Shown piece by piece: positions 1-14,762 of a stretch of DNA of 14,762 nt; the stretch's first letter is position 1; every line of letters begins with the position of its first letter. A program made the translations under genes and the position numbers. The notes below the pieces were generated by a model. The model had not been told where the DNA came from and did not search any database. It saw only the letters and a list, made by a program, of their open reading frames with translations. The stretch is from UHGV virus genome UHGV-0206032. One strand, 5' to 3'. This DNA is from a virus.

Positions 1-1263
1 ATGGCGGTCTCACACGGCTCCTTGCCATTCAAAGAACAGATCGACTATTTCCGTGGCAAGGTCGACCTACCGACTCGCGCATGGACTGACGCTTACGCTG
101 CTGAACACGACTATGCCTTTGTCGTGGCGGGTGCTGCGAAGCGGGATCTGCTGACCGACCTGCGGGGTGCCGTAGAGAAGTCCATCGCCAGCGGCACCAC
201 CCTGGAGCAGTTCCGCAAAGACTTTGACCAGGTCGTCGGTAAACACGGCTGGCAGTACCAGGGCGAGCGCGGTTGGCGCACCAATGTCATCTGGGAGACC
301 AACCTGCGCCAGTCGTACAACGCGGGCCGCGAAGCCCAAATGGCTGACCCGGAGTTGCGCAAACGCCGTCCCTATGCGGTCTATCGTCATGGCGACAGCG
401 CGCACCCACGGCCAATGCACTTGTCCTGGAACGGCATCACGCTGCCGCTCGATGACCCCTGGTGGGCAACTCATACCCCGCAAAACGGCTGGGGCTGTAA
501 GTGCAAAAAATTCATGCTCTCGGCCAGGGACGTTGAACGCCAAGGGCTGACGATTGGTCCGGCACCGGCCACTGAATGGGAAGATCGGGTCATTGGCCAG
601 AACAGTCCTGACGGACCACGCACAGTGCGAGTGCCCAAGGGCATTGATCCAGGCTTTGAATATGCACCTGGTCAATCACGCCTGACGAACTCCGTGCCCC
701 AGCTGCGCACCCGCGACTTGATACCAGCACCATCAGCAGCTCCGGTACCGGCAATAGGTTTACCCAACCGTCAGCCCACCGGTCCTTTGCCGCAACCTCG
801 ACAAATCCCAGCAAAGCGCCTGCTCCCGGCCAAAGTGTCTGCCCCCCAGGCAGTGACTCAGTTCCTGGGCGAGTTCGGTGCCACGGATGCCACTCCGGCT
901 GTGTTCCGTGATGTGACCGGTGATGCCCTGGTCATCGGGCGGGCGATGTTCAGTGATGCCAAAACCGGCGCAATAGCATTGGCCCAACAAGTCAAGGCCC
1001 GCGAGTTACCGTTGTTGGCTGAAGCCATTAAGGCACCTGATGAGATCTGGGCGCGCTTGGAATGGCAGCCAGATCAAGGCAAAGCGGTGTTGCGCCGTCG
1101 TTACCTGGCGCACGTCCAGGTCAAAGGGAGGGCTGATCCAGCTGTTGCTGTATTCGACCAGGGCGCAGATGGCTGGACCGGCGTTACAGGGTTTGTAGAT
1201 GACAGCGAGCAGTACCTTGAGGCATTGCGCCTGGGTGTCCTGCTTTACCGGCGTACCGAATAG
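1..1263 (+). CDS. Phage head morphogenesis protein, MuF (Mu gp30) family, with Pro-rich linker and C-terminal domain
   Basis: 420-aa ORF starting at window position 1. N-terminal ~230 aa resemble the MuF/SPP1 gp7 head morphogenesis domain as I recall it (DYAFVVAGA...DLLTDLR, NVIWETNLRQSYNAGR, PYAVYRHGDSAHPRPMHLSWNG, NGWGCKCK). RBS GGGAG for the next gene overlaps its stop. True start could lie upstream of the window. Confidence 0.8.
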   Translation: MAVSHGSLPFKEQIDYFRGKVDLPTRAWTDAYAAEHDYAFVVAGAAKRDLLTDLRGAVEKSIASGTTLEQFRKDFDQVVGKHGWQYQGERGWRTNVIWETNLRQSYNAGREAQMADPELRKRRPYAVYRHGDSAHPRPMHLSWNGITLPLDDPWWATHTPQNGWGCKCKKFMLSARDVERQGLTIGPAPATEWEDRVIGQNSPDGPRTVRVPKGIDPGFEYAPGQSRLTNSVPQLRTRDLIPAPSAAPVPAIGLPNRQPTGPLPQPRQIPAKRLLPAKVSAPQAVTQFLGEFGATDATPAVFRDVTGDALVIGRAMFSDAKTGAIALAQQVKARELPLLAEAIKAPDEIWARLEWQPDQGKAVLRRRYLAHVQVKGRADPAVAVFDQGADGWTGVTGFVDDSEQYLEALRLGVLLYRRTE

Positions 1264-1272
1264 GGAGCAGAC

Positions 1273-1836
1273 ATGGCTGGTTCAATGCTTGAGGTATCCC
1301 TCGATACAAGCCCAGTAGGCAAGGCTCTGGACGATCTGGTCGAGCGACTAGGCGACCTGACAACGCCGCTCAATGACATCGCCGAATACCTGCACCAATC
1401 GACTGATGACCGCTTTCGTCAGCAGGTAGCCCCGGATGGTTCGCCCTGGGCGCCACTTGCGCCCTCAACTTTGGCACGTAAGAAGGGAGGCCGCATCCTC
1501 CGCGCCAAGGGCACGCTTCAGGACACACTGCGTCACAACGTCAGCAACAATGAGCTGTCTTTCGGTACTGACCGACCATACGGTGCCATTCACCAGCTCG
1601 GTGGTAAGGTCCAGCATGCGGCCAGGTCACAGCAGGTCTACTTCCGTCAGGGTAAAGATGGATCGGTGGGCAACCGCTTTGTGAAGAAGAGCAAGTCCAA
1701 CTTTGCGCAGTGGGTCACCCGTGGTGCGCATGACTCCGAGATCAAGGCAAGACCCTACCTGGGCCTATCATCAGACGACGATATCGAGATACTGGCGATC
1801 ATCCAGGACTACCTTATGGCGCCAATAACAGAGTAA
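1273..1836 (+). CDS. Phage virion morphogenesis protein (Mu G / gp31-like)
   Basis: 187-aa ORF immediately after the MuF gene, with RBS GGGAGCAG 6 nt upstream of ATG. Size and position match Mu G; sequence resembles the virion morphogenesis family from memory. Confidence 0.7.
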   Translation: MAGSMLEVSLDTSPVGKALDDLVERLGDLTTPLNDIAEYLHQSTDDRFRQQVAPDGSPWAPLAPSTLARKKGGRILRAKGTLQDTLRHNVSNNELSFGTDRPYGAIHQLGGKVQHAARSQQVYFRQGKDGSVGNRFVKKSKSNFAQWVTRGAHDSEIKARPYLGLSSDDDIEILAIIQDYLMAPITE

Positions 1837-2087
1837 CGATGCAGAATCACGCAGGCGCTCTGATAGCGGCTTACGGGTACATCCGTCACCTGTGGATTGG
1901 TTAAACAGCGTTAGACCTGCGTTAGATTCAGTTGTAGCGGTATTGATAACGTCTTCGCGAGATATCGTGCGGCCATTCTCTACATATAAAATGAATTCAC
2001 CGCGCACTCATTCTCGTCCTTCCCCAGGCAAAAACCTTGCGCGGTCCTGAAATTACTTTCATTTAAGTACCCGCCGACACTGGCGGC
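1837..2087 (+). promoter_or_regulatory. Intergenic region, candidate internal late promoter/operator (analogous in position to Mu P_I)
   Basis: Only sizeable non-coding gap in the window (251 bp) and AT-richer than its flanks. Contains direct repeat GCGTTAGA x2 (1908-1915, 1919-1926), inverted repeat ACCGCGCA / TGCGCGGT (1999-2006 / 2038-2045) and a GC hairpin CCGCC-N6-GGCGG (2071-2086) abutting the ATG of the next gene. In Mu a C-dependent late promoter sits upstream of gene I. Confidence 0.3.
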
Positions 2088-3062
2088 ATGAAAACTCAAC
2101 TCGCCGCTAACTCAGAAATTTACAGCTCCGTCGAGCTTTCCGATGGGAAGGCCCCCGACTGGGTTGAACTTATCCCCGCAGGTCCGACCGTCACCGGTCG
2201 TGATGGCCGTGCCTGGCTGTTCGATGACATGGCCACCGAACTGGTGCAGTCCAATTTCATCAGTCGAGCAATCGATCTGGTCATTGACCGGGAGCACGCC
2301 ACACAGCTCCGTGCATCCGTTGGCCAGGAAGCCCCAGCCGGTGCCTGGGTCAAACAATTCGAAATCCGCGATGGCGCTCTGTGGGGTCGCGTTGAATGGA
2401 CGCCTCGCGGTGCTGCTCAGGTCGAGGCCAAAGAGTATCGCTACCTATCCCCAGTGTTCGACTACGACCTCGACAACAAACGCATCGTGCGCATGGTCAG
2501 CGCGGCGCTGACCAATATCCCCAACCTCATCATGACCGCCCTCAACCAAGAAGCCCCGGAGAACACACCAGTGAAACTTTCAGCTGCGTTTTTGGCACTG
2601 CTCGGCCTGCCCGACACCGCCACTGAAGAACAGGCCATGTCGGCCGCAAGCCAACTCAAAACTACCGCCCAGGCCGCCAACACCGAACAGCCAAACTTGG
2701 CGCAGTTCGTCCCGCGTGCGGACTACGACGCCCTGGTCGGCCGTGCCACCAACGCCGAACAGGCGCTGGCCAGCCAGAAGAAGGCCGAGCACGACAAGGA
2801 AGTCGATGCAGTCATCATCTCGGCTACTAAGGCCGGAAAGATCACCCCATCCACCGTCGAGTACCACCGCGCCATGTGCCATGACGAAGCGGGCCTGGCG
2901 CGTTTCAAAGATTTTGTGACAGCGGCCCCTGTCGTGGCTGCGGCATCGGAACTGGGCAACAGGAACCCCGCGAATACCGGCACGGCTCTCAACGCCGAGG
3001 AACAAAAGGTCGCATCGTTGCTGGGTATGAGCGAAGCGGAATTCATCAAGGGCAAGGCGTAA
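2088..3062 (+). CDS. Prohead protease / scaffold protein (Mu I / gp32-like)
   Basis: 324-aa ORF. N-terminal half resembles Mu I-type protease (GKAPDWVELIPAGP...GRDGRAWLFDD); C-terminal half is Ala/Gln/Glu-rich and scaffold-like. Lies directly upstream of the major capsid gene, as in Mu. Confidence 0.8.
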   Translation: MKTQLAANSEIYSSVELSDGKAPDWVELIPAGPTVTGRDGRAWLFDDMATELVQSNFISRAIDLVIDREHATQLRASVGQEAPAGAWVKQFEIRDGALWGRVEWTPRGAAQVEAKEYRYLSPVFDYDLDNKRIVRMVSAALTNIPNLIMTALNQEAPENTPVKLSAAFLALLGLPDTATEEQAMSAASQLKTTAQAANTEQPNLAQFVPRADYDALVGRATNAEQALASQKKAEHDKEVDAVIISATKAGKITPSTVEYHRAMCHDEAGLARFKDFVTAAPVVAAASELGNRNPANTGTALNAEEQKVASLLGMSEAEFIKGKA

Positions 3063-3090
3063 CTCCCCCTCTATATAAAGGAAGAGATTC

Positions 3091-3984
3091 ATGATCATTA
3101 ACGCCAGTGTCTTGAACGCGCTGTTTGTTGCGTACAAGGCCGAGTTCCAAAACGCGCAGGCCGCGACACCGACCGACTGGAAGCGTATCGCCACGCCGGT
3201 CCCGTCCTCATCGGCCAGCAATACCTATGGCTGGCTGGGTCAGTTCCCGATGTTCCGTGAGTGGATCGGCGACCGTGTTCTCAAAAACATGGCAGCGCAT
3301 GGCTACTCCATCACCAACAAGAAGTTTGAGTCCTCGGTGGGTGTCCCACGTGATGCCATCGAAGACGACGAGATCGGCGTTTATAAGCCGCTGTTTGCCG
3401 AAATGGGGCGTGCTTCCAGTGCGCACCCGGACGAGCTGGTATTCGCGCTGCTCAAAGCGGGCTTGACCACCACCTGTTACGACGGCCAGTACTTCTTCGA
3501 TACTGATCATCCGGTCTACCCGTCGACCGATGCGTCTGGCACGGCGGTTTCCGTCAGCAACTATCAAGACGGTACAGGCCCGGCCTGGTATCTGCTCGAT
3601 GTCAGCCGCGCCCTGAAACCCATCATCTTTCAGAACCGTCGCAACTACGATCTGAAAGCGATGACCGCAATGGACGACGAAAGCGTATTCATGCGCGACG
3701 AATACCGCTATGGCGTGGATGCCCGGGTGAACGTCGGCTTCGGCTTCTGGCAGTTCGCTTACTGCTCAAAAGCCCCACTGACCGCCGAGAATTACGGCCT
3801 GGCTCGCGCAGCCATGAAGAACTTCCAGGCCGATGGCGGTCGCCCTTTGGGCATCAACCCCGGCCTCCTGGTTGTTCCATCCCAACTGGAAGGCGCTGCT
3901 CGCAAGATCCTGGTCAAGGATGCGGACAACGGCAACGAATGGGCAGGCACCGCCGAAGTACTTGCACCGGCCTGGCTGGGCTAA
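3091..3984 (+). CDS. Major capsid (head) protein, Mu T / gp34-like
   Basis: 297-aa ORF with strong RBS AGGAAGAG upstream. Size and position after the protease/scaffold gene match Mu T; sequence is consistent with the Mu-like major head subunit family from memory. Confidence 0.8.
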   Translation: MIINASVLNALFVAYKAEFQNAQAATPTDWKRIATPVPSSSASNTYGWLGQFPMFREWIGDRVLKNMAAHGYSITNKKFESSVGVPRDAIEDDEIGVYKPLFAEMGRASSAHPDELVFALLKAGLTTTCYDGQYFFDTDHPVYPSTDASGTAVSVSNYQDGTGPAWYLLDVSRALKPIIFQNRRNYDLKAMTAMDDESVFMRDEYRYGVDARVNVGFGFWQFAYCSKAPLTAENYGLARAAMKNFQADGGRPLGINPGLLVVPSQLEGAARKILVKDADNGNEWAGTAEVLAPAWLG

Positions 3985-3993
3985 GGGGGCGTC

Positions 3994-4548
3994 ATGACCA
4001 TTGTGATCACCTCGAAACATGACGGTTTTCGCCGCTGTGGCATCGCCCACTCCAGCGCGGCCGCGCGTTACCCGGATGACTTCTTTTCGGAAGCGCAGTT
4101 GCGGGCTCTGTCAAAAGAGCCTCAGTTGATCCTCGCTTATGAGGAGGATGAATTCGACCAGGTACAGGACCGCCGCGATGAAAACCTCCAGGAAGTCGAT
4201 GTATCGAAAGCGGCCGGCACCTCTGAAAGTACCTTGCAGGGCTTGGGTCAGACAGACCCTGCGGCAGTGGGTGACGCTGGGCTTAACCTCCAGCACGGAG
4301 CCAGCCATGGGCTTGATTTGCCGCAGGTAGGTGGTGTTGTTTCGGCAGATGAGGTCAAGCCTGAGCCAGACCTTGAGGCACTTTGGATCGCCGCGCTCCT
4401 GGAAGACGAACAACGGGAAGCGGCCAAACTGAACGCAGAGACCGAAACGCTTTGGGATGAAGCGATTGCGGAGGATGTACTGCGGGAGGTGGCCAAAGAA
4501 AAGGCGGCAAAGGCACCAGCAAAGCCTAAAAAGGCAGCGGGTAAATGA
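3994..4548 (+). CDS. Mu gp35 / FluMu-like small head-associated protein with acidic middle and Lys/Ala-rich tail
   Basis: 184-aa ORF with RBS AAGGGGG. N-terminal MTIVITSKHDGFRRCGIAH motif resembles the FluMu/Mu gp35 N-terminal domain; middle is strongly acidic; C-terminus is KEKAAKAPAKPKKAAGK. Stop overlaps the next start (ATGA). Confidence 0.5.
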   Translation: MTIVITSKHDGFRRCGIAHSSAAARYPDDFFSEAQLRALSKEPQLILAYEEDEFDQVQDRRDENLQEVDVSKAAGTSESTLQGLGQTDPAAVGDAGLNLQHGASHGLDLPQVGGVVSADEVKPEPDLEALWIAALLEDEQREAAKLNAETETLWDEAIAEDVLREVAKEKAAKAPAKPKKAAGK

Positions 4549-5036
4549 ACCTCTCACTGCCGTCCGCCAGCCAGCTCCTGGTCCGCTTTGGCCCTCGTGA
4601 TATCACCGAGGTTGCAGTCGCGGATACCGACAGGGTCATCGAGCCCGAGCTGCTGGTAGCCGCTGCCGCAGGCAAGCCATTGGATGACTGGTCTGCGGAA
4701 GATGTGGCCATCGCCGTCATGGCGTTGGCCAGGATCGCTGACGCGGTCACTCGGTCGCGTAGTGAGGTTTCGTTTTACCTGCGGTTCCGTGCGGCTGGCG
4801 AAGATGCTCCCGAATGGGTCACCGATGACCTGGCCGAGATCGCTCGCTACCACCTGTACGACGATGCCGGAAAGGAAGAGTCGACTGTGCGGGTGCTCTA
4901 CAAGGACGTGATAAAGCGCCTTGAAACTCTGGCCAAGGAAGACAAGGAGCGTGGAGCCGCCGAGGCAGGCCGGTCGGGCATGCAGCTCACCAGTCAGCCA
5001 CGACTAATGTCTCGCACCACCTTGAGGTCGCTCTGA
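4545..5036 (+). CDS. Head-tail joining / head completion protein (Mu gp36-like, DUF1320-type)
   Basis: 163-aa ORF, ATGA-coupled to the upstream gene and TGATG-coupled to the downstream gene. N-terminus (LLVRFGPRDITEVA) resembles the gp36-family start motif; position matches Mu J/gp36. Confidence 0.5.
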   Translation: MNLSLPSASQLLVRFGPRDITEVAVADTDRVIEPELLVAAAAGKPLDDWSAEDVAIAVMALARIADAVTRSRSEVSFYLRFRAAGEDAPEWVTDDLAEIARYHLYDDAGKEESTVRVLYKDVIKRLETLAKEDKERGAAEAGRSGMQLTSQPRLMSRTTLRSL

Positions 5037-5602
5037 TGTTGGGCGAGCTGGAAGACCTGATCGAGGCGCGCCTGAAGGAACTGACGGCCAAGATCCCGCG
5101 CCTGGCCGTGGAAAGCTACGGCGGTGAATTGAGCGACCCGGACCTGTTGCCTGGGTTGCTCAAACGTTGCCCGGCTGTACTGGTCATGGTGCCCAAGGTG
5201 ACGTTTCAGCGGCGTAGTCAAAATCGCTACACGGTGCCGATTACCTTCCGCCTGGTCATTGCCACACGTCACCCCCGTGGCGAACGGGAAACCCGGCGGG
5301 GTAGCGGCCCAAAGGACGTGGGTAGCTACGACCTATGGGAAGCCTGCATGCATCAACTGGTGGAATGGCAGCCTTGGGTAGATCGTGCAGCTATTCGTCC
5401 GACCGAGCTTTCCAACCTGGTCAACGGCAAGTTGGCCAGCGACCACCTCTCAGTCCTGGGGCAATCGTTCGTCATCGAACTGGATTGGGAAAAACCGAAA
5501 GAGGCTCTGCCTGACTTCCTGGGCGTCAGCTTGGAATACCACACCCCATCGGATAACCCCGAGCCGGTGGCCACCGACATCATCGAACTGAGGGACGTGT
5601 AA
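5036..5602 (+). CDS. Head-tail joining protein (Mu gp37-like, DUF1834-type)
   Basis: 188-aa ORF, start overlaps the previous stop (TGATG). Position and size match Mu gp37/K analogues. Confidence 0.5.
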   Translation: MLGELEDLIEARLKELTAKIPRLAVESYGGELSDPDLLPGLLKRCPAVLVMVPKVTFQRRSQNRYTVPITFRLVIATRHPRGERETRRGSGPKDVGSYDLWEACMHQLVEWQPWVDRAAIRPTELSNLVNGKLASDHLSVLGQSFVIELDWEKPKEALPDFLGVSLEYHTPSDNPEPVATDIIELRDV

Positions 5603-5793
5603 TGCACGTTATCGCCGCACCTGGTCATCGGGTGCCCATGGATGAAGATCCGTACAAGTACATCGAAGAGGCCGAGTCCGTCGACGTGCCAGATACCTCC
5701 TACTACCGACGCCGCTTGGCGGCTGGTGAACTGCTCGCCGCGAAGAAACCACGCGGCAGTGCCAAACAACTCGCACAGGAATCCGCTGAATGA
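5602..5793 (+). CDS. Small tail-associated protein (DUF2635-like, Mu gp38 position)
   Basis: 63-aa ORF, TAATG-coupled upstream and ATGA-coupled to the sheath gene. Motifs APGHRVPMDEDP and DTSYYRRRL resemble the small conserved protein found just upstream of sheath genes. Confidence 0.45.
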   Translation: MHVIAAPGHRVPMDEDPYKYIEEAESVDVPDTSYYRRRLAAGELLAAKKPRGSAKQLAQESAE

Positions 5794-6890
5794 GCATTTC
5801 CTTTGACACCATCCCGGCGTCGATTCGCAAGCCGGGCGTTTACATTGAGTTCAACACCAGCCTGGCGGTACGGACGCTGCCCACCAACAAGCAGAGTGTC
5901 TGCCTGATCGTGCCCCTGGGCGTCGATGCTACTGTTGCGGCCAACGTGCCTACGCCGTTCTACAGCGCAGCCGAGGCCAAAGCCTTGTTCGGCGGGACAG
6001 TGGCCGAGGAAATGGCGGACGCGTTTATCACCGCCTATCGGTACGCCTCCATCTCGGCCGTAGGTGTGGTGGTCGAGGGCGAAACAGAACCCGACATCAA
6101 GGCTGCTTTGGACTCGACCGCCATGGGTGGTTTCACCATCCTGGTGCCTGCCTGGTTTAGCCAGGTCGCACTCACTGCATTGCGCACGCACATCCAGACC
6201 TACACCAGTTCGATGGAGCAACAGGGAATCATCGGTGTGGCGGCGCTGACCAGCACCTTGTCGGCCGCGACCACGTTGGCCACGTCGCTGAACTCCGGCG
6301 CAATCAGCTTGGCAGTCCTGCCGGGAACTGCATCGACTGCGCGCCAGGTAGCCGCCGCGTATGCCGCGATGATCGCCTCGGAAGAAGATCCAGCGCGGCC
6401 GCTGAATACCCTGGTGTTGACTGGTATCAAGGTTCCGCCGGTCACTCAGCGTCTCGGTCGTACAGAGCAGGAAACGGCGCTGGCCAATGGTGTCACGCCG
6501 CTGGAGGTTGCGGCCGGTGATGTCATCCAGATCGTCCGTGCAGTGACCACCTACACCAAGTCTGCTGCTGGTGCCACGGACGTGTCGCTGCTGGATTTGA
6601 CCACTATCCGCACTCTGTATTACGTGCGTGTGGCCATTCGTGACCGCATCCGGCTGCGCTTCCCACGCTCGAAACTCTCCAGCAAGACGCCTGCGGCTGT
6701 TCGTGGCGAGATCCTGGACGTACTCAAGAAGCTGGAAGAGTTGGAAATCGTCGAAGAGGTGGACGCCAACGCCGATGGTCTGGTGGTTGAGCGTTCACTC
6801 CAGGACGTAAACCGCCTCAATGCAACCATTCCTGTCGATGTAGTCAACGGCCTGCATGTGTTCGCCGGTCGCATTGACCTGCTCCTGTAA
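5790..6890 (+). CDS. Tail sheath protein (Mu L-like)
   Basis: 366-aa ORF. N-terminus (TIPASIRKPGVYIEFNTSLA) matches the characteristic sheath N-terminal pattern; followed by a ~120-aa tube gene, as expected for contractile tails. Confidence 0.7.
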   Translation: MSISFDTIPASIRKPGVYIEFNTSLAVRTLPTNKQSVCLIVPLGVDATVAANVPTPFYSAAEAKALFGGTVAEEMADAFITAYRYASISAVGVVVEGETEPDIKAALDSTAMGGFTILVPAWFSQVALTALRTHIQTYTSSMEQQGIIGVAALTSTLSAATTLATSLNSGAISLAVLPGTASTARQVAAAYAAMIASEEDPARPLNTLVLTGIKVPPVTQRLGRTEQETALANGVTPLEVAAGDVIQIVRAVTTYTKSAAGATDVSLLDLTTIRTLYYVRVAIRDRIRLRFPRSKLSSKTPAAVRGEILDVLKKLEELEIVEEVDANADGLVVERSLQDVNRLNATIPVDVVNGLHVFAGRIDLLL

Positions 6891-6903
6891 GAGGTGATTT
6901 TAG

Positions 6904-7275
6904 ATGGCTGATAACTACGTAGGGCAGATCGTCCTGGAGATCAACGGCACCGATTATGAGGTGACGAGCGTTGAGCCGAGCCTTAAGACCGGGCGTAAGG
7001 TCGTCAAGACGATGAACCGCACAGGCCGTCCCACCGGCACGGCAAAAGGTATTGAAGAGCACGAGCTGAAAATCTCGGTGCCAATTCCGAAGACTGGCGA
7101 GCCAGACTGGCGGGCACTGATGGACGCCAAGCTGACCATCTATCCGCAGGACGGTGGCAGTAAGCGCCAGACCTGGACCGGGTGTTCTTTGATGGAGATG
7201 GGCAGTAAGTACCAGGTAGAGGGTGAAGCCACCCGCGACCTGACCATCGCCGCCCTCAACTACTACCCGGAGTGA
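6904..7275 (+). CDS. Tail tube protein (Mu M-like)
   Basis: 123-aa ORF with RBS AGAGGTGA. Size and position (sheath -> tube -> chaperone -> tape measure) match tail tube proteins. Confidence 0.65.
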   Translation: MADNYVGQIVLEINGTDYEVTSVEPSLKTGRKVVKTMNRTGRPTGTAKGIEEHELKISVPIPKTGEPDWRALMDAKLTIYPQDGGSKRQTWTGCSLMEMGSKYQVEGEATRDLTIAALNYYPE

Positions 7276-7279
7276 TGCA

Positions 7280-7666
7280 ATGACCGAGCAATCAAGCAAG
7301 CGCTGGGAAGGACTGAGCATCACCCGCGAACTCAAAATGGGTGTCTATTACTCCGGCCTGCGCCACAAGACCTTCACTTTGCGTGTTCCTGTTGCGGGCG
7401 ACCTGGTCGCCGCGCAGGAGCTGCACCCAGGCGCACCATTTCAACTGATCACCCTGGAGGTTTATCGCCGTCAGTTGTTGTCCCTGGGCGAGATTCCCGC
7501 CGACGCGTTGACCACTGAATTGCTCCTGGGCGAACTCACCGAGAGCGACCTGGCCATCATTGCCGATGCCGATGCCGAGCTGGAAAAAAAGCTCGCGCCG
7601 CCGAGCGCGGCAACGTCGACTGGCGACGAATCGAACACGCCTTCGTCCGCCACGGCTACCGGCTAG
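7280..7666 (+). CDS. Tail assembly chaperone (short, in-frame product)
   Basis: 128-aa ORF between tube and tape measure genes. Contains an in-frame A_AAA_AAG slippery heptamer at 7585-7591. Confidence 0.6.
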   Translation: MTEQSSKRWEGLSITRELKMGVYYSGLRHKTFTLRVPVAGDLVAAQELHPGAPFQLITLEVYRRQLLSLGEIPADALTTELLLGELTESDLAIIADADAELEKKLAPPSAATSTGDESNTPSSATATG

Positions 7667-7788
7667 AAGAGCTTCGCCAGATGACCAGGGCCGAGATCGA
7701 TGCACGTATTGATCTGATCATCGGCAAGGTCAAAGGCACCCGCTATGTCAGTCAGCGCCAGCGCAAGGCGTTGCCTAAACCCAAATGA
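7280..7788 (+). CDS. Tail assembly chaperone, predicted -1 frameshift fusion product (slip at 7585-7591)
   Basis: After a -1 slip on A_AAA_AAG the -1 frame stays open for 65 codons (ARAAERGNVDWRRIEHAFVRHGYRLEELRQMTRAEIDARIDLIIGKVKGTRYVSQRQRKALPKPK) to TGA at 7786-7788, ending just before the tape measure start. Mirrors the conserved G/GT-type frameshift of long-tailed phages. Confidence 0.5.
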
Positions 7789-7843
7789 CAGGCTCGACAC
7801 CGGGCCTTTCCTGTCCCTGTAAGTCCGTTTCCGGGAGTTATCC

Positions 7844-10261
7844 ATGTCCGATCTGCGCGTCGCGCTTCGTTTCCAGGCCCATGCGGGTAACAGTCGGCGC
7901 GAGATCGAGCAGATCAACCGTGACCTGCGCAAGGCTGGCAAGGAGGGCGCCAAGGCTCTGGCCGATGAAAGCTGGAAAGCGTCTTCTGCCATCACCAAGG
8001 TCGGCCAGGTCGGGGCCAACAGCTATAAAGTGATCCGTGCAGCAATGCGCGAAACCGCTACGGCTGGTTCCGGCACGCGCATCGAGGTCAGCAAGACAAC
8101 TGCTGAACTCAAGGATATGGCCAATGCAGCTCGCAAGGCTGCACGAGATGCGAAAACTGAGTTGCAGAACACCGACCGGCAAGGCGTGCAGCCCTTGCGC
8201 CAGAGCGTTGATAAGACAGAGGCATCCTTCCGGCGCATGGCACAGAACAGCGGTCGCAGCCTGCGAACTTTGAAAACCATCGCTATGGGTGTGCGTCAGG
8301 AGTTTGATCGCATCAAGGGGCTGGGCGGGAGCATGCAAGGGAAACTGGCTGGGTTAGGTGTGGGAGTCGGTGTTGTGTCGGGCGTGACATCAAGTGCAAA
8401 GCTGGACCGCCAGCTTATACGTACTCAACAAACTGCGGGCATGTCAGTTGAACAGCGTGAAGAATGGCGTGGTGAACAGTGGCGCTTAGCAAAAACCTAC
8501 GGCATTGAACGTGAGCAAGTTCAAACAGGGTTCGATACCTTGATCGCAAGTGGTATGTCCTACGATAAAGCGAAAGCAAGTTCCGGAGCTATCGCTCAAG
8601 CAACAGCAGTTACGGGGGCTGACTCCGGGATTCTGGCTAAAGCGCTTATAACTGGTGCGAGCGCTTTTGATATTGACCTCTCTAAGCCCAACGCTGCTGT
8701 AGACATCTTGCAAAAAATGATCGTTGCTGGCCGTCTGGGTAACGCTGAACTTGAGAATCTATCAAGCATTTTCCCTAAAGTGGGGCAGGACGCCAAGTCG
8801 GCGGGCATGTCCATGGCTCAGTCTCTTTCGTTTGTTGAAACGTTATCTCTTATTGAACTTGAACCTGATCGTCTAGGAACTCTGGCGCAATCGACTTTGC
8901 GTGCATTCAACAATGGTAATTACCGCAAGAGCGTTACGAAAAATACAGGCGTCGATTTTTTCAACAAGGATAAGTCTGTAAGGAATACTCAGGATGTATT
9001 TCTTGACCTACAGCACAAATACAAATCACTTAAGAATGACAAAGATCGCGCTCGATTCATGGATGTGGTGTTTGGAAAGATGGACCAGGACACGCAAAAG
9101 GGAGTTAAGGCGTTCTTGACTGGTGATCGACTGGAGAACTTTGCTAAAAGTACCGGGGACATTAATAACGCCAAAGGCGTTATTGAAAAGGATCTGGCCG
9201 ATAACATGAGCAGTTCGACTGCTGTCGGTTCTCGAATGAAGGCCAGCCTTGGCGAAGCCATCGACCGTATGGCGAAGCCATTGAACAAAGGCTTTGCAGA
9301 CCTCGGCAGTTACCTGCTCGATGATCTGAATTTGTCAGGCGAGCAAATGCTGGTCGGTGGTGCCGCACTGGGAGTCGGTGGCTACTACGCCGGACGCGGT
9401 GCCAAAGCAGGCGCAGGCGCTTTGCTCAACAAGTTTATGGGTGGACCGGAGACCTTGAAAAACATCGCCGTGGGCAAGGTGTTGGAAGAAGCCACGGGCG
9501 TTACATCTGTTTTCGTCACCAACTGGCCTGCTGGTGCGCCCCTCGGTATTGGCAGCGGTCCCGACCTGCCCAATGGTCCCAGTTCCGGTAAAGGCAACGG
9601 GAAGCCAGGTGGTTTTATCACCCCGTGGCTAGCACCCTTGGCTTTAGCTGCGACGGCCACGCAGATCGGCGGGGCAAGTGCGACGGCTACAGACGAAGGT
9701 CGCCTCGATGCTGCCCAGCGCAGCAAGCTGCTTAACGATGATCAGCGAACGTACCAGGCGTCCTTCTACCGCAACCGCATGGCCCTGGCCGACAGGAATC
9801 CCAGCCAGTCATCTGATTGGCTGTCCTCAGAGGCCCAACGCCTGGCGCACCATGAAACCGGCCTGACAGCTGCGGGCCTGCCCATCGATGGCGCAAACAC
9901 CTGGGCCCAAGGCATCGCCGGTCGTGCCCTGGCTGCGGGTGCCAACACCTTCACAGCACAACAACGCCTGCGGGACATGATGGCGCAATCCGGTACCAGC
10001 CAGCCTTCGACCTGGTTAGCCGACCAGGCGCAACGCCTGGCTAACCCGTTGTCGGGCGGCAGCATGGCTGGCTTTCCTGGAATTGCCGGCAACGGCTCCG
10101 CACCAGGTGCAATCGGTGCCAATCCTGCCGCACAAGCCGCCGAGGAACGCCTCCGCTCCTTGCTCACCCAGCCGCTGATCATTGAAGTGCGTACTGACTC
10201 ACGGATGATCCAGGCCGAGGTTGAGCGTCGAACTGATATTCAGATGAGGCGCGGCGGATGA
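7844..10261 (+). CDS. Tail tape measure protein
   Basis: 805-aa ORF with RBS GGGAG, downstream of the chaperone. Has Gly-rich/hydrophobic stretches, a conserved-looking central core and C-terminal repeats. Stop overlaps the next start (ATGA). Confidence 0.85.
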   Translation: MSDLRVALRFQAHAGNSRREIEQINRDLRKAGKEGAKALADESWKASSAITKVGQVGANSYKVIRAAMRETATAGSGTRIEVSKTTAELKDMANAARKAARDAKTELQNTDRQGVQPLRQSVDKTEASFRRMAQNSGRSLRTLKTIAMGVRQEFDRIKGLGGSMQGKLAGLGVGVGVVSGVTSSAKLDRQLIRTQQTAGMSVEQREEWRGEQWRLAKTYGIEREQVQTGFDTLIASGMSYDKAKASSGAIAQATAVTGADSGILAKALITGASAFDIDLSKPNAAVDILQKMIVAGRLGNAELENLSSIFPKVGQDAKSAGMSMAQSLSFVETLSLIELEPDRLGTLAQSTLRAFNNGNYRKSVTKNTGVDFFNKDKSVRNTQDVFLDLQHKYKSLKNDKDRARFMDVVFGKMDQDTQKGVKAFLTGDRLENFAKSTGDINNAKGVIEKDLADNMSSSTAVGSRMKASLGEAIDRMAKPLNKGFADLGSYLLDDLNLSGEQMLVGGAALGVGGYYAGRGAKAGAGALLNKFMGGPETLKNIAVGKVLEEATGVTSVFVTNWPAGAPLGIGSGPDLPNGPSSGKGNGKPGGFITPWLAPLALAATATQIGGASATATDEGRLDAAQRSKLLNDDQRTYQASFYRNRMALADRNPSQSSDWLSSEAQRLAHHETGLTAAGLPIDGANTWAQGIAGRALAAGANTFTAQQRLRDMMAQSGTSQPSTWLADQAQRLANPLSGGSMAGFPGIAGNGSAPGAIGANPAAQAAEERLRSLLTQPLIIEVRTDSRMIQAEVERRTDIQMRRGG

Positions 10262-11601
10262 GCTGGGCAGAGAACCTGCTGGACGCTTCCTTCCGTGGCG
10301 TCCCGCTCCAAGTAGAAGGCGAAAGCCTACAATGGCAACGCGCCCTGTCTGAGCATGGGACGCCGTTCAAGGATGGCGACCGGGTCAAAGACCTGGGCCG
10401 TGGTGCGCGCCGTATCCCCATGCAAGTAGTGGTGTTCGGCGTCAATTACGAGATCGAACTCCAGAACATCCTCCGTACCTTGAATACACCAGGTACGGGC
10501 GAACTGATCCACCCGATCTACGGCAGCATGAATGTCGTCAGCAGCACCGGCGAGGTAAAGCACAGCGCCGAGCGGCCAGACTATGCCGAGATCAGCATAG
10601 TGTTTGTTGAGGACACGCCCGACGCTCCATTCTTCGACCGGCAGTTTGAATTTGTCGATGTCGGCGTATTGGGGTTGGAGGATGAATACACCTGGCAGGA
10701 TGGCATCTTCGATCTGTTCGGCCGTATTGATTCCCTGGTCGGCGAGATTCAATCGTGGATCGGCGGGGGCTGGGTAGGACTGATCGAAAAGGCCCTGGGC
10801 TTGCCTGGCATTGGCCTGCGCTTGCAACAGCTGCGCTCGCAGATCATGGGTGTGGTGTCCGGCGTCGGGTCGATGGCCAAGCGGCCATCAGGGGCGTTTG
10901 ATCCCCTGGTCGACCTGATGCGCACACCCTCGGAGATCCGAGGCGCCATCCAGGGCAGCACGCCCAGTTCGTCAACGACGCTACTAGCTCGCACTGGCGT
11001 ACCCGTTAGCTTGCCTGGTAATGCCAGCCTGGTGGCGGATGCTGCGCGTGCGGGTACTGGCTTTCTGATAGGTGCCCGACAAGGTGTGGCACCCACCGTC
11101 GGCCTGCTGATCGACGGCGTACCGACCAATGCGGGCAGCGCCCTGGTGCTGCTGCCCGACGGAATGCCGGATGATCCGGTTACCGCTAACGGTTTCGCCC
11201 TGGTCGTCCTGGTCATCACTGAACTGGCACTGGCTCACGCCCAGGCGGTAGCCACCGTCATCGAGGACGAAGCCGATACGCCGACGTTGAGTCCATTAGA
11301 GCTGGAAGGCCTGGTTAATTTGGTGCGCTCGCTGGTGCAGTCGTCCATCCTTCTACAACGTCACCTTTTCGACGTAGAGACCGCACTGCCGATCATTGAT
11401 GCATTGCGCAACGTCGCCGCGTTGATCCAGGCCCGCGCCCGTCAAGTCATTTTGCAAAGTCCTCCGATGCTTGAGCGGGTGGTTGAGACGCCTGCAAGCC
11501 TACATTTGCTGGCTCACCGCTGGTATGGCGGGCCGAGTGGAAGGAAAAGGTCGAAGCGGCCGCTGCTCGCGTCGACAAGATCGCCAAAAAAGGCGGCATG
11601 A
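10258..11601 (+). CDS. DNA circulation protein (Mu N / gp43-like)
   Basis: 447-aa ORF. N-terminus (ASFRGVPLQVEG, LGRGARRIP, GTGELIHPIYGS) matches the DNA circulation protein N-terminal domain as recalled for Mu N. The 3' end is uncertain: its last ~40 codons overlap other frames (see findings). Confidence 0.75.
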   Translation: MSWAENLLDASFRGVPLQVEGESLQWQRALSEHGTPFKDGDRVKDLGRGARRIPMQVVVFGVNYEIELQNILRTLNTPGTGELIHPIYGSMNVVSSTGEVKHSAERPDYAEISIVFVEDTPDAPFFDRQFEFVDVGVLGLEDEYTWQDGIFDLFGRIDSLVGEIQSWIGGGWVGLIEKALGLPGIGLRLQQLRSQIMGVVSGVGSMAKRPSGAFDPLVDLMRTPSEIRGAIQGSTPSSSTTLLARTGVPVSLPGNASLVADAARAGTGFLIGARQGVAPTVGLLIDGVPTNAGSALVLLPDGMPDDPVTANGFALVVLVITELALAHAQAVATVIEDEADTPTLSPLELEGLVNLVRSLVQSSILLQRHLFDVETALPIIDALRNVAALIQARARQVILQSPPMLERVVETPASLHLLAHRWYGGPSGRKRSKRPLLASTRSPKKAA

Positions 11602-11650
11602 GTCAGACAACAGCGGACGAAATCCGGCGCGAGATCCTGGGGATGGCATC

Positions 11651-13204
11651 GTGAGTCTGCCCCTCGTCCTAGACAGCACCGCCACTTTGCTTGCCCCAGC
11701 GGTCTTACTCGACTATCAGAAAGAGTGGATCGGTATACGCGCCCCACTCAAGGTTGGCGAGAAATCCCGGCGTATCGGTCTCACATGGGCTGAGGCGGCA
11801 GACAACGTCCTGGTAGCCGCGTCCGAAAAATCGGCGGGCGGTCAAACTGTCTATTACCTCGGCTACAACCAAGACATGACCGTGGAGTACATCCAGGCAT
11901 GCGCCATGTGGGCGCGGGCCTATAACTACGCGGCCGAGCAAATAGAAGAAGGCATCTGGCCCGACAGCGACCCCGACAAACACATCAAGACCTACACCAT
12001 CGCGTTTCCCAGCGGCCACCGCATCGTCGCGCTGACCAGTCGCCCGTCCAACCTGCGTGGGCGTCAGGGCGTTGTCGTGATCGACGAAGCCGCGTTCCAT
12101 GCGGACTTGGCCGAGCTGCTCAAAGCTGCAATGGCTCTGTTGATCTGGGGCGGTGAAGTCCATGTGATCAGCACCCACGACGGTACGGAGAACCCCTTCA
12201 ACGACCTGGTCAACGAAATCCGGTCAGGCAAGCGCAATGGTGAAGTGTTCCGCTGCACGTTCGGTGAAGCCGTTGCCGATGGTCTGTACAAGCGTGTCTG
12301 CCTGCGTAAAGGCATTGGGTACAGGCTTGAGGATCAAATCGCCTGGGTGAATGACGTATACGACTTCTACGGCGATGCAGCCGACGAAGAATTAGACTGC
12401 GTGCCATCCCAGGGTGGCGGTGCCTTCCTCAGCATGGCCCTGGTTGAGCAGCGCAGTAACCGTGACGTGCCGGTACTGCGCCTGGCATACCCGCAGGGTT
12501 ACGAAACCATCGCCGAACACTTGCGCCTGGCCGAGTCCCTGGAGTGGTGCGAAGAGCATTTGCTCCCGCTGCTTTCGGCCATTCCCCTGGACGTTCAGAG
12601 CTTCTATGGCATGGACTTCGGGCGCTCCGGAGACCTCTCGGTCTTCTGGCCATTGCTCAAAGAGCAGAATCTGCGCAAACGCACGCCCTTTGTGGTCGAG
12701 CTGCGTAACGTCCCGTTCAAGCAACAACTCCAGATTAAGTTTTACATCATTCGTCGCTTACCCAACTTCCTCAAAGGCGCCGACGACGCCAGGGGCAACG
12801 GCTCGCAACTGTCGGAAGACACTGCCGTCGAGTTCGGCTTCAACCGCATCGAGCGTGTGATGCTCACCGAGGGCTGGTATCGCGACAACATGCCGCCGTT
12901 CAAGGCCGCCCTGGAAGATGACACCTTCTACGACATCCCGGCCGACAAGGATGTGGTTAGCGACGTGCGTGCCTTTCGGATGGTCAAGGGCGTGGCTCGC
13001 ATCCCCGAAAAGCGCACCAACGAAAAGGGCGAAAAGTCCGGACCGAAGCGCCATGGCGACGCCGGTATCGCGGCCGTACTGGCCGACTACGCCTCTCGTC
13101 AAGATGTCGAAATCTTCGAATATCACCGCGTCCAGCCAGCCGTCCAGCATGATCGCGAGATCAAGCACGGGGCTGGGTGGCGCTCTCAGAAAGGCATTTG
13201 GTAA
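11651..13204 (+). CDS. Terminase large subunit (Mu gp28-like)
   Basis: Frame of track ORF 11471..13204, but start proposed at GTG 11651 (RBS GGGGA 7 nt upstream); the upstream in-frame part is Arg-rich junk overlapping gene N. Motifs: LLDYQKEW near N-terminus, Walker-B-like VVVIDEAAF, ISTHDG, nuclease-domain-like GMDFGRSGDLSV, C-terminal RHGDAGIAAVLA. Confidence 0.75.
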   Translation: MSLPLVLDSTATLLAPAVLLDYQKEWIGIRAPLKVGEKSRRIGLTWAEAADNVLVAASEKSAGGQTVYYLGYNQDMTVEYIQACAMWARAYNYAAEQIEEGIWPDSDPDKHIKTYTIAFPSGHRIVALTSRPSNLRGRQGVVVIDEAAFHADLAELLKAAMALLIWGGEVHVISTHDGTENPFNDLVNEIRSGKRNGEVFRCTFGEAVADGLYKRVCLRKGIGYRLEDQIAWVNDVYDFYGDAADEELDCVPSQGGGAFLSMALVEQRSNRDVPVLRLAYPQGYETIAEHLRLAESLEWCEEHLLPLLSAIPLDVQSFYGMDFGRSGDLSVFWPLLKEQNLRKRTPFVVELRNVPFKQQLQIKFYIIRRLPNFLKGADDARGNGSQLSEDTAVEFGFNRIERVMLTEGWYRDNMPPFKAALEDDTFYDIPADKDVVSDVRAFRMVKGVARIPEKRTNEKGEKSGPKRHGDAGIAAVLADYASRQDVEIFEYHRVQPAVQHDREIKHGAGWRSQKGIW

Positions 13205-14760
13205 TGGCTGACTCCAAAATCGTCGACCAGTACGGTCGCCCGATCCAGTACGACAAACTCACGGAAGAGCTGGCAGTTGCCCGCACCACCGGCATTCGCC
13301 AGATTTGGCACCAGTCGGTGGCCAACGGCCTGACACCTCAGCGTCTGGCGAGTATTTTGCGGGCCGCTGCCGAGGGATCAGCTAATGACTACCTGACCCT
13401 TGCTGAGGAAATGGAAGAACGGGATCTGCATTATGCCTCGGTGTTAGGCACACGTAAGCTGGCAGTGGCCGGGTTGTCGGTTCGGATCGAGGCAGCCAGC
13501 GACGATCCCGAGGACGTACGCCGGGCCGATCAGCTCAAGGAGCTAGTTGACTCTCCCGAGTTTGGCGAGCTTCAGGCGGACCTGACTGACGCCATGGGCA
13601 AAGGCTATGCCGTCTCCGAAATCATGTGGGACCGTAGTGGTAAGACCTGGAATCCTGAGCGTTTTGAACCCCGCGATCAGCGATTCTTCCAATTTGACCG
13701 TGAAACCGGCCGGGAGCTGCGCCTGCTCGATGAGGCTGATCCGATCAATGGTGTTGCCCTGGCTCCGTACAAATTCATTGTTCATCTGCCGCGTATCCGC
13801 TCTGGTCTTCCGATCCGGGGCGGCCTGGCGCGCCTCGCGGCTGTTGGCTACATGTGCAAGGCCTGGACTTGGAAGGACTGGATGGGCTTTGCTGACATCT
13901 TCGGCATGCCGATGCGCGTCGGCCGGTACGGCGCAGGTGCGAGCAAGGAAGACATCAGCACTCTGATGTCTGCGGTGGCCAACCTGGGCAGCGATGCAGC
14001 AGCGGTGATCCCGGACAGCATGCGCATTGAGTTTACCCAGGCCGCCAATGTGGGCGGTGCCGGGGACTTCTTCAAAGGGCTGGCCGAATGGTGGGATAAA
14101 CAAGTCAGTAAGGCCGTAGTCGGTCAGACCATGTCCACCGACGACGGCTCCAGCCAAGCCCAGGCAACGATTCATAACGAAGTTCGTATAGACCTACTGC
14201 AAGCCGATGCCAAGGCCGAATCCAACACCTTGAACCGCTACTTTGTGCGGCCCTGGTGCGATCTGAACTTTGCACCTGGTCGTCCGTATCCGCGGCTGAT
14301 CATTGATGTGCCAAAGCCAGAAAACACCAAGATCCTGATCGAGGCACTCAAGACACTCGTTCCGTTAGGGTTGAAGGTCGAGCAGTCCGTAATCCGCGAC
14401 AAGCTCAATATCCCGGCTCCGGCCGAGGGTGCCGAACTGCTGGGCATCCCGCCACCCGTTGCCACTCCTGCGCTGGCCCAGGCTACCAACAGCGAGCAAA
14501 AGCCAGCCAAGCCGGTGGTAATGCCGGACATCGTGGATAACCAGGTGCGGACGCTTGAGCGGACTGTGGGGGTCTATATGGATGACATGGTCGAGCAGAT
14601 CAAGGAACTACTCGACACCGTCAGCAGCCTGGAAGAGTTCCGGGATCGGCTGATCGAAGCCTATCCAGCGATGACCACCAGCCAATTGGCCGATGCGATT
14701 GCTGATGGCCTGACGGCCGCCAGCATGGCTGGCCGCGATGACATTCTGAGAGGCCTGTAA
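13204..14760 (+). CDS. Portal protein (Mu gp29-like, DUF935-type)
   Basis: Start proposed at ATG 13204, which overlaps the TerL stop (TAATG), rather than the track's 13177. 518 aa, directly downstream of TerL. N-terminal region (IWHQSVANGLTPQRLASILRAAAEG...LAEEMEERDLHY) resembles the Mu gp29 portal family from memory. Confidence 0.75.
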   Translation: MADSKIVDQYGRPIQYDKLTEELAVARTTGIRQIWHQSVANGLTPQRLASILRAAAEGSANDYLTLAEEMEERDLHYASVLGTRKLAVAGLSVRIEAASDDPEDVRRADQLKELVDSPEFGELQADLTDAMGKGYAVSEIMWDRSGKTWNPERFEPRDQRFFQFDRETGRELRLLDEADPINGVALAPYKFIVHLPRIRSGLPIRGGLARLAAVGYMCKAWTWKDWMGFADIFGMPMRVGRYGAGASKEDISTLMSAVANLGSDAAAVIPDSMRIEFTQAANVGGAGDFFKGLAEWWDKQVSKAVVGQTMSTDDGSSQAQATIHNEVRIDLLQADAKAESNTLNRYFVRPWCDLNFAPGRPYPRLIIDVPKPENTKILIEALKTLVPLGLKVEQSVIRDKLNIPAPAEGAELLGIPPPVATPALAQATNSEQKPAKPVVMPDIVDNQVRTLERTVGVYMDDMVEQIKELLDTVSSLEEFRDRLIEAYPAMTTSQLADAIADGLTAASMAGRDDILRGL

Positions 14761-14762
14761 AC

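What the first reader, a model, noticed from the sequence alone, without database searches (positions are those of the whole stretch)
4545..13206. Extensive start/stop overlap coupling along the operon
Overlapping stop/start junctions occur at 4545-4548 (ATGA), 5034-5038 (TGATG), 5600-5604 (TAATG), 5790-5793 (ATGA), 10258-10261 (ATGA), 11598-11601 (ATGA), 11651-11654 (GTGA) and 13202-13206 (TAATG). This indicates tightly coupled translation and supports the proposed starts, including the revised TerL and portal starts.
Basis: seen in the sequence. Interest (0 to 1): 0.2.

Follow-up and report, generated by a model that had tools for sequence, protein, structure and literature searches.

The report
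Overlapping stop/start codons, Mu-like phage genes
Seven of the eight overlapping stop/start codons are ordinary, conserved gene junctions of a Pseudomonas Mu-like phage, and the eighth is an accident of a non-native join where a truncated tail gene is fused to the tail end of the small-terminase gene.

Summary
Seven are real gene boundaries of a Mu-like morphogenesis module: gp35-like/gp36, gp36/gp37, gp37/gp38, gp38/sheath, tape measure/N, small terminase gp27/TerL and TerL/portal. All seven overlaps recur in relatives at 49-93% protein identity. Four have the same overlap class in phage Mu itself.

Homologues confirm the revised starts, TerL at GTG 11651 and portal at ATG 13204.

The eighth motif, ATGA at 11598-11601, is not a gene junction. 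The window is a circular permutation of a native 14,762-bp prophage segment, closed at 11525-11530 through a 5-nt microhomology (ATGGC). That join cuts gene N at codon 424 of 456 and fuses it, out of frame, to the last 41 codons of gp27. The "18-aa ORF" is the in-frame tail of gp27, and ATG 11598 is an internal Met codon.

So 4545-13206 is not one native operon, and the partner of the GTGA at 11651 is gp27, not a mini-ORF. Short -4/-1 overlaps are the commonest spacing of same-strand gene pairs in prokaryotes. Translational coupling here is plausible but inferred.

Verdict: already known, low interest, with one useful correction.

The parts
4545..4548 (+). ATGA: stop of the gp35-like FluMu_N-domain protein (3994-4548) overlapping the start of gp36 (4545-5036)
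   Evidence: ATG 4545 is the first codon after an in-frame TAA. A -4 overlap is kept in L002 (ATG), L015 and L014 (GTG). Mu gp35/gp36 also overlap by 4 nt.
5034..5038 (+). TGATG: gp36 stop and gp37 start (5036-5602), 1-nt overlap
   Evidence: A -1 overlap is kept in L002, L015 and L014. Mu gp36/gp37 overlap by 1 nt. Shine-Dalgarno (SD) GAGG, dG -6.3.
5600..5604 (+). TAATG: gp37 stop and gp38 (DUF2635) start (5602-5793), 1-nt overlap
   Evidence: -1 in L002, L014 and L015; -4 or -8 in more distant loci. SD GAGGGA, dG -6.1. Mu gp37/gp38 overlap by 14 nt.
5790..5793 (+). ATGA: gp38 stop and tail sheath start (5790-6890)
   Evidence: -4 in L002, L014 and L015. Mu gp38/L overlap by 4 nt, and the Mu record notes that the L start was confirmed by amino-acid sequencing.
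10258..10261 (+). ATGA: tape-measure stop and N (DNA circularisation protein) start
   Evidence: -4 in L002, L014 and L015, with the N-terminus MSW conserved out to 28% identity.
10258..11601 (+). Chimeric ORF: N codons 1-424, then a 23-codon out-of-frame read through the gp27 3' end, ending at TGA 11599-11601
   Evidence: Native N is 456 aa. The C-termini are compared. This exact 447-aa product is not on record anywhere.
11525..11530 (.). Non-native breakpoint, with microhomology ATGGC
   Evidence: Megablast hits split at 11525/11530. Three-way alignments. Native contigs match 8982-11530 and 11525-14762 at separate places.
11531..11654 (+). 3' remnant of the small-terminase gene gp27: its last 41 codons plus the stop, with no native start
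   Evidence: Native gp27 is 170 aa, Pfam Phage_Mu_Gp27 and PHROG terminase small subunit at 6e-49. Protein comparison. Substitutions against MT835710 are 4 of 6 synonymous in this frame and 0 of 6 in the TerL frame.
11598..11601 (+). ATGA that is not a real gene junction: an internal Met-Ser (ATG AGT) of gp27 that happens to hold the first stop met by the frame-shifted N read-through
   Evidence: The homologous codon is CTG (Leu) in L038 and L052. Native gene calls show no 18-aa gene. Junctions involving 18-aa ORFs occur at chance frequency.
11651..11654 (+). GTGA: the real gp27 stop overlapping the TerL start
   Evidence: SD GGGGA, dG -7.5, the best of all in-frame candidates.
11651..13204 (+). 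Large terminase TerL, 517 aa
   Evidence: PHROG phrog_2 at 7e-31. Called as 517 aa on native contigs.
13202..13206 (+). TAATG: TerL stop and portal start, 1-nt overlap
   Evidence: Mu gp28/gp29 overlap by 1 nt.
13204..14760 (+). Portal protein, 518 aa. The window's end (14762) runs straight on to window base 1 (the F start) in native contigs.
   Evidence: Portal_Mu at 9e-106. Closure shown (L003 4211|4212).

Best explanation
The window is the late morphogenesis module of a Pseudomonas Mu-like myovirus prophage, presented as one circularly permuted 14,762-bp unit.

Seven of the eight motifs are authentic, evolutionarily conserved boundaries. At each, the stop codon of one structural gene shares 1 or 4 bases with the start codon of the next. 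A Shine-Dalgarno-like motif lies inside the 3' end of the upstream gene.

The most likely function is the well-described one. A ribosome terminating on the upstream gene re-initiates at once on the overlapping start (termination-reinitiation). This links the output of proteins that assemble together: terminase with portal, head-completion proteins with sheath, and tape measure with the baseplate protein N. It also keeps the genome compact.

The eighth motif (11598-11601) has no such role. A non-native join at 11525-11530 fused N codon 424 to the out-of-frame 3' end of gp27. The first stop in that frame happens to fall inside the Met-Ser codons of gp27.

Shown here: the motifs, the gene identities, the conservation of the overlaps and starts, and the breakpoint. 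Inferred: actual translational coupling, and the origin of the join.
For: Motifs and frames.

Gene identities: Pfam and PHROGs.

Native order: contigs 99.9-100% identical to the window run gp27-TerL-portal-F-...-TMP-N-P, with the same called starts.

Breakpoint.

Conservation across 80 genome loci plus MT835710 and MT836396:
- TerL/portal has an overlapping start in 34 of 42 diverged loci.
- gp27/TerL has one in 16 of 20.
- The five tail-side overlaps are kept in L002, L014 and L015.

Phage Mu has the same overlap class at four of the seven junctions.

Shine-Dalgarno pairing energies run from -3.2 to -7.5 kcal/mol, and the claimed start is the first or best candidate for most genes.

Literature: -4 and -1 are by far the commonest same-strand spacings, such pairs are coupled by termination-reinitiation, and gaps of about 20 nt abolish coupling (PMC6728339, PMC10666635).
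Against: - No expression data exist for this element, so coupling is inferred from geometry.
- Every downstream start also has its own Shine-Dalgarno motif, so independent initiation could account for much of the translation.
- The Shine-Dalgarno motif for the portal start is weak (-3.2 kcal/mol).
- The comparative set for the five tail-side junctions rests mainly on three to four relatives, because BLASTP lost the small proteins in distant loci.
- The origin of the join is unresolved.
Confidence: 0.85

Rival explanations
1. One reading: all eight are functional coupling junctions of one operon, including a real 18-aa micro-ORF that relays ribosomes from N to TerL.
For: The geometry allows a relay: N' stop and ATG 11598, then TGA 11652-11654 and GTG 11651. 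There is a weak AAGG motif upstream of 11598, dG -3.2.
Against: - Seven native contigs at 99.9% identity, and all relatives, place gp27 (170 aa) upstream of TerL and P downstream of a 456-aa N.
- ATG 11598 is codon 153 of gp27 and is CTG in L038 and L052.
- The join and its 447-aa product are found nowhere else.
- Junctions with 18-aa ORFs are as common on the non-coding strand.
Confidence: 0.03
2. The overlaps are real boundaries but reflect only genome compaction and mutational drift of stop and start positions. Each gene initiates independently at its own Shine-Dalgarno motif.
For: Every start has a Shine-Dalgarno-like motif. The overlap class drifts among relatives and in Mu: gp27/gp28 has a +7 gap, gp37/gp38 a 14-nt overlap and gp42/gp43 a +4 gap. 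Huber et al. found one E. coli pair (bioBF) with an overlap but no coupling.
Against: In the tested E. coli and Haloferax pairs, 13 of 14 overlapping pairs were coupled. Overlaps are enriched among subunits of complexes. The portal overlap persists down to about 30% identity.
Confidence: 0.2
3. The overlaps are chance co-occurrences of common tetramers and pentamers at ORF ends.
For: The strings are frequent: 60 ATGA and 45 GTGA in the window.
Against: Seven of 15 real junctions overlap, against about 4% of ORFs in shuffles. The starts are conserved in homologues.
Confidence: 0.02
4. On the origin of the join: it is a laboratory or assembly chimera, for example polymerase template switching during amplification, that made an assembler close a false circle.
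For: - The join uses a 5-nt microhomology.
- It is unique to this sequence.
- Run SRR8240678 carries 100% identical DNA, and its contig starts exactly at 11531, as expected at a graph branch.
- A sister run's contig (L013) carries another chimeric join, this one inverted.
Against: A 5-nt match cannot by itself close a de Bruijn cycle, so reads spanning the join must exist. The window starts exactly at a gene start, as after deliberate rotation of a contig judged circular. No reads could be inspected.
Confidence: 0.5

Closest known systems
Overlapping stop/start gene pairs coupled by termination-reinitiation (Huber et al. 2019, PMC6728339; Huber et al. 2023, PMC10666635)
   Same: Same-strand neighbours with -4 (ATGA/GTGA) or -1 (TGATG/TAATG) spacing. 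A Shine-Dalgarno motif lies inside the upstream gene. The products assemble into complexes.
   Different: Nothing was tested experimentally here. Seven of 15 junctions overlap, well above the roughly 15% genome-wide average reported for most prokaryote groups. I expect such density to be normal for phage structural operons, but that rests on my own knowledge.
Late morphogenesis region of Escherichia phage Mu (NC_000929: gp27-gp28-gp29-F-G-I-T-gp35-gp36-gp37-gp38-L-M-gp41-gp42-N-P)
   Same: Same gene families in the same order once the window is un-permuted. Same overlap class at gp28/gp29, gp35/gp36, gp36/gp37 and gp38/L.
   Different: The host is Pseudomonas. Mu has a 7-nt gap at gp27/gp28, a 14-nt overlap at gp37/gp38 and a 4-nt gap at gp42/N. 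The window lacks the first 129 codons of gp27, the last 32 codons of N, and everything outside that segment.
Near-identical Pseudomonas Mu-like prophage contigs (e.g. Logan SRR5677835_238 = L003/L009; MT835710 and MT836396 at 82-94% DNA identity)
   Same: 99.9-100% DNA identity to the window over every part of it. Identical stop/start overlaps and called gene lengths.
   Different: They are collinear with Mu and lack the N'/'gp27 join. L003 also has an ISL3 insertion in the tape-measure gene.

Membership tests
Stop/start-overlapping gene pairs coupled by termination-reinitiation | Two adjacent protein-coding genes on the same strand, both real | tested here: met
   Met for seven junctions (Pfam and PHROG identities; native gene calls). 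Not met for 11598-11601, where both partners are products of the chimeric join.
Stop/start-overlapping gene pairs coupled by termination-reinitiation | Intergenic distance of -4 or -1 nt | tested here: met
   The distance is -4 at 4545, 5790, 10258 and 11651, and -1 at 5036, 5602 and 13204.
Stop/start-overlapping gene pairs coupled by termination-reinitiation | Shine-Dalgarno motif within the 3' end of the upstream gene | tested here: met
   Anti-SD duplex energies run from -4.3 to -7.5 kcal/mol for six starts. The portal start is weak at -3.2.
Stop/start-overlapping gene pairs coupled by termination-reinitiation | Translation of the downstream gene depends on translation of the upstream gene | not testable with these tools
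   Needs reporter fusions with premature stops, or ribosome profiling.
Mu-like (Muvirus-type) morphogenesis module | Mu-specific protein families above Pfam gathering scores | tested here: met
   Above the gathering score: Portal_Mu, Phage_Mu_F, Phage_tail_S (G), Mu-like_Pro, Mu-like_gpT, FluMu_N, Gp36, Gp37, DUF2635 and DNA_circ_N. Gp41_Mu is below threshold, but PHROG tail assembly chaperone scores 4e-30.
Mu-like (Muvirus-type) morphogenesis module | Gene order collinear with Mu (gp27, TerL and portal upstream of F; P downstream of N) | tested here: not met
   In the window as given, TerL and portal follow a truncated N. The order becomes collinear only after cutting at 11530|11531 and joining 14762 to 1.
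Authentic micro-ORF (18 aa, 11598-11654) | Present, with a conserved start codon, in related genomes | tested here: not met
   It is the in-frame tail of the 170-aa gp27 in all native contigs. The start codon position is CTG in L038 and L052.

The most novel reading that the evidence does not exclude
The N'/'gp27 join may be a real molecule rather than an artefact. That would be a 14.76-kb ring, or tandem amplification, of the late region of a Pseudomonas Mu-like prophage, formed by microhomology-mediated recombination. In it, an accidental stop/start relay (N' stop and ATG 11598, then an 18-aa peptide, then TGA and GTG 11651) would link the two native late transcription units into one endless, translationally linked reading loop.
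Probability: 0.15. Interest if true: 0.35.

Novelty: already known. Interest (0 to 1): 0.12.

Why it matters
The finding confirms correct start codons for TerL (GTG 11651) and portal (ATG 13204), and for five tail and head-completion genes. That is useful for annotation but is textbook biology.

The practical value is the correction. Anyone annotating this sequence should know three things:
- It is a permuted, internally joined unit.
- Its 447-aa "N" protein and its 18-aa ORF are products of the join.
- It lacks a functional small terminase and all baseplate and fibre genes.

Tried and rejected
- Searching for the join elsewhere. An exact 34-mer across the join gave nothing in viral contigs or metagenome contigs. 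Megablast of 11000-12100 against plasmids gave nothing. Exact look-up of the 447-aa chimeric product gave nothing.
- Identifying run SRR8240678 through the literature. The only hits were unrelated accessions.
- Promoter and terminator scan to delimit transcripts. All counts were at the shuffle level and uninformative. Mu-type late promoters lack -35 hexamers (PMC2582627), so this scan could not see them.
- BLASTP of window proteins against stop-to-stop ORFs of 80 loci. It lost gp36, gp37, the chaperone and the tape measure in most distant loci. Conservation of the tail-side junctions therefore rests on L002, L014 and L015 plus a few others.
- The first slippery-site script used the wrong frame. 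It was corrected.
- An upstream-extended TerL (ATG 11525 or TTG 11471) was considered and rejected. That stretch overlaps gp27, evolves synonymously in the gp27 frame, and is closed by stop codons in three relatives.
- GTG 13177 as the portal start was considered and rejected on homologue N-termini.
Full report
**1. The observation**

All eight strings are in the sequence at the coordinates given, each at a point where one open frame ends and another could begin.

The strings themselves are common. The window holds 60 ATGA, 45 GTGA, 19 TGATG and 6 TAATG. If ORFs as short as 18 aa are admitted, the non-coding minus strand gives 12 four-base "junctions" against 9 on the plus strand.

So a motif counts only if both partners are real genes. 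With ORFs of at least 40 aa, shuffled sequence gives about 2.5 four-base and 0.35 one-base pairs per roughly 69 ORFs. In contrast, seven of the 15 junctions between consecutive real genes, taken in native order, overlap by 1 or 4 nt.

**2. What the genes are**

Pfam and PHROGs identify a Mu-like myovirus morphogenesis module:

| Coordinates | Gene |
|---|---|
| 1-1263 | F |
| 1273-1836 | G |
| 2088-3062 | protease/scaffold I |
| 3091-3984 | major head protein T |
| 3994-4548 | FluMu_N-domain protein, at the position of gp35 |
| 4545-5036 | gp36 |
| 5036-5602 | gp37 |
| 5602-5793 | DUF2635 (gp38) |
| 5790-6890 | sheath |
| 6904-7275 | tube |
| 7280-7666 | tail assembly chaperone |
| 7844-10261 | tape measure |
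| from 10258 | N (DNA_circ_N) |
| 11651-13204 | TerL (phrog_2, 7e-31) |
| 13204-14760 | portal (Portal_Mu, 9e-106) |

In Mu, TerL and portal lie upstream of F. Here they follow N.

**3. The window is a permuted unit with a non-native join**

- Megablast against phage records splits at window 11525-11530. Three records match up to 11530 on the N side, and another matches from 11525 on the terminase side (alignment).
- Exact-protein look-ups found contigs that are 99.9-100% identical to the window and have the Mu order: gp27 (170 aa), TerL (517), portal (518), a 2-nt gap, F, and so on to the tape measure, N (456 aa) and P.
- Window 11525-14762 followed by 1-8989 is one uninterrupted stretch of L003, so the window's end runs straight into its start.
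- At 11525-11530 the N-side sequence (...GGTATGGCG|ACCAC) and the gp27-side sequence (...AAAATGGCA|GGCCG) share ATGGC. The window reads ...GGTATGGCG|GGCCG.

The window is therefore one 14,762-bp ring or tandem unit. It runs from about nt 384 of gp27 to about nt 1273 of N, closed by a 5-nt microhomology. By my own estimate (not a tool result), a random blunt join would show at least 5 nt of microhomology only about 0.5% of the time.

**4. Consequences for the two middle junctions**

ORF 10258-11601 is N codons 1-424 followed by 23 out-of-frame codons read through the gp27 3' end.

The 18-aa ORF (11598-11654) is the in-frame tail of gp27 (...KKGGMSQTTADEIRREILGMAS*). ATG 11598 is gp27 codon 153, and the homologous codon is CTG in L038 and L052. 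The ATGA at 11598-11601 is thus a by-product of the join.

The GTGA at 11651-11654 is real, but its upstream partner is the small-terminase gene gp27 (phrog_426, 6e-49 for the native protein). Only the last 41 codons of gp27 survive here.

**5. Are the starts right?**

*TerL.* L015, L014 and L018 (87, 82 and 73% identity) have an ATG at the codon aligned to GTG 11651, with an in-frame stop only 19, 3 and 7 codons upstream. L038 and L052 keep GTGA over the gp27 stop, and MT835710 has TTGA.

GTG 11651 has the best Shine-Dalgarno pairing of all in-frame candidates, at -7.5 kcal/mol. Between the window and MT835710, substitutions in 11531-11650 are 4 of 6 synonymous in the gp27 frame and 0 of 6 in the TerL frame.

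*Portal.* An ATG overlapping the TerL stop by 1 nt is present in 27 of 42 diverged loci, and some overlapping start is present in 34 of 42. The motif GGCATCTGGTAATGGC persists to about 58% identity.

*gp36, gp37, gp38, sheath and N.* The same overlaps and N-termini are present in L002, L014 and L015, at 49-93% protein identity. For these five genes the overlapping ATG is also the first start codon in the open frame.

*Phage Mu.* Mu has the same overlap class at gp28/gp29, gp35/gp36, gp36/gp37 and gp38/L. The Mu record notes that the L start was confirmed by amino-acid sequencing.

**6. Mechanism**

Distances of -4 and -1 nt are by far the commonest same-strand spacings in 1,695 prokaryotic species. 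Such pairs were experimentally coupled by termination-reinitiation in E. coli and Haloferax. Gaps of about 20 nt nearly abolish coupling, and overlaps are enriched among subunits of complexes (PMC6728339, PMC10666635).

The seven real junctions fit that description, including their internal Shine-Dalgarno motifs. Coupling here is inference and was not measured. Independent initiation at each Shine-Dalgarno motif remains a live alternative.

[quoted passage not shown] By analogy, the gp27/TerL and TerL/portal junctions belong to a lys-type transcript and the other five to an I-type transcript.

**7. Origin of the join (unresolved)**

The join and its product are absent from every collection I could search.

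Run SRR8240678 carries DNA 100% identical to the window, including its private SNPs. One of its contigs begins exactly at 11531, the first base past the breakpoint. That is what a branch in an assembly graph would produce. A sister run's contig (L013) carries a different, inverted chimeric join. These points favour an amplification or assembly chimera.

Two points favour a real structure. The window starts exactly at a gene start, as after deliberate rotation of a contig judged circular. And a 5-nt match cannot close a de Bruijn cycle without reads that span it. So a real tandem duplication or ring is not excluded.

**8. Verdict**

The starts are right, coupling is plausible, and the 11598 junction and the single-operon picture are wrong.
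- The phenomenon is already known and typical of Mu-like phages.

Noticed in passing
window 7585-7591 (heptamer); -1 frame open 7519-7788; GC-rich hairpin 7591-7615: The tail assembly chaperone gene holds an in-frame slippery heptamer A_AAA_AAG, followed at once by a GC-rich stem-loop. A -1 shift would add 65 codons ending at 7788. That fills the apparent 177-nt gap before the tape-measure gene and explains the '35-aa gene' called there on native contigs. The heptamer (A_AAA_AAG, G_GGA_AAG or A_AAA_AAA) and a conserved -1 extension are present in all eight relatives where the chaperone was found. This looks like the classic G/GT-type programmed frameshift.
   Followed up: partly
window 14762|1 and 11525-11530: The window is a circular permutation: its end runs straight on to its start in native contigs. 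It lacks the first 129 codons of gp27, the last 32 codons of N, and all baseplate, fibre, lysis and transposition genes. As a ring it could not make a virion.
   Followed up: yes
L095 (SRR8240678_6337) and L096 (SRR8240678_1890): Two contigs from one public run are 100% identical to window 11531-14609 and 6886-11469. The first starts exactly at the base after the breakpoint. This run is probably the same strain or sample as the window.
   Followed up: partly
L013 9438-9564 (SRR8240692_9470): A near-identical native contig ends with an inverted join: window 3131 joined to the reverse complement of 5137-5011, with 2-5 nt of microhomology. This resembles an amplification chimera in a sister run of SRR8240678.
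   Followed up: partly
window 1837-2087: There is a 251-nt gap between G and I, the longest non-coding stretch in the window. It is at the position of Mu's PI late promoter and strong gyrase site (Mu G/I gap). A minus-strand 78-aa ORF (1771-2007) is called here on some native contigs but matches no PHROG family. No sigma-70-like promoter or terminator stands out.
   Followed up: partly
L003 13213-14514 / L009 16359-17355: In SRR5677835_238, and apparently in GCA_041691915.1, an ISL3-family transposase gene interrupts the tape-measure gene of the otherwise identical prophage. The gene is called as 389 aa plus 400 aa instead of 805 aa. That copy is therefore defective.
   Followed up: no
window 1-1263: The Mu F-like protein carries a C-terminal PBECR2 domain, a predicted Barnase/EndoU/colicin-like nuclease (7.9e-26), in addition to the Phage_Mu_F domain.
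   Followed up: no
L003 15896-17266 / 17250-18383: In native contigs N and P overlap by 17 nt, and this holds in 8 of 13 diverged loci. Mu N/P overlap by 8 nt. This is a longer, conserved overlap just outside the window's content.
   Followed up: no
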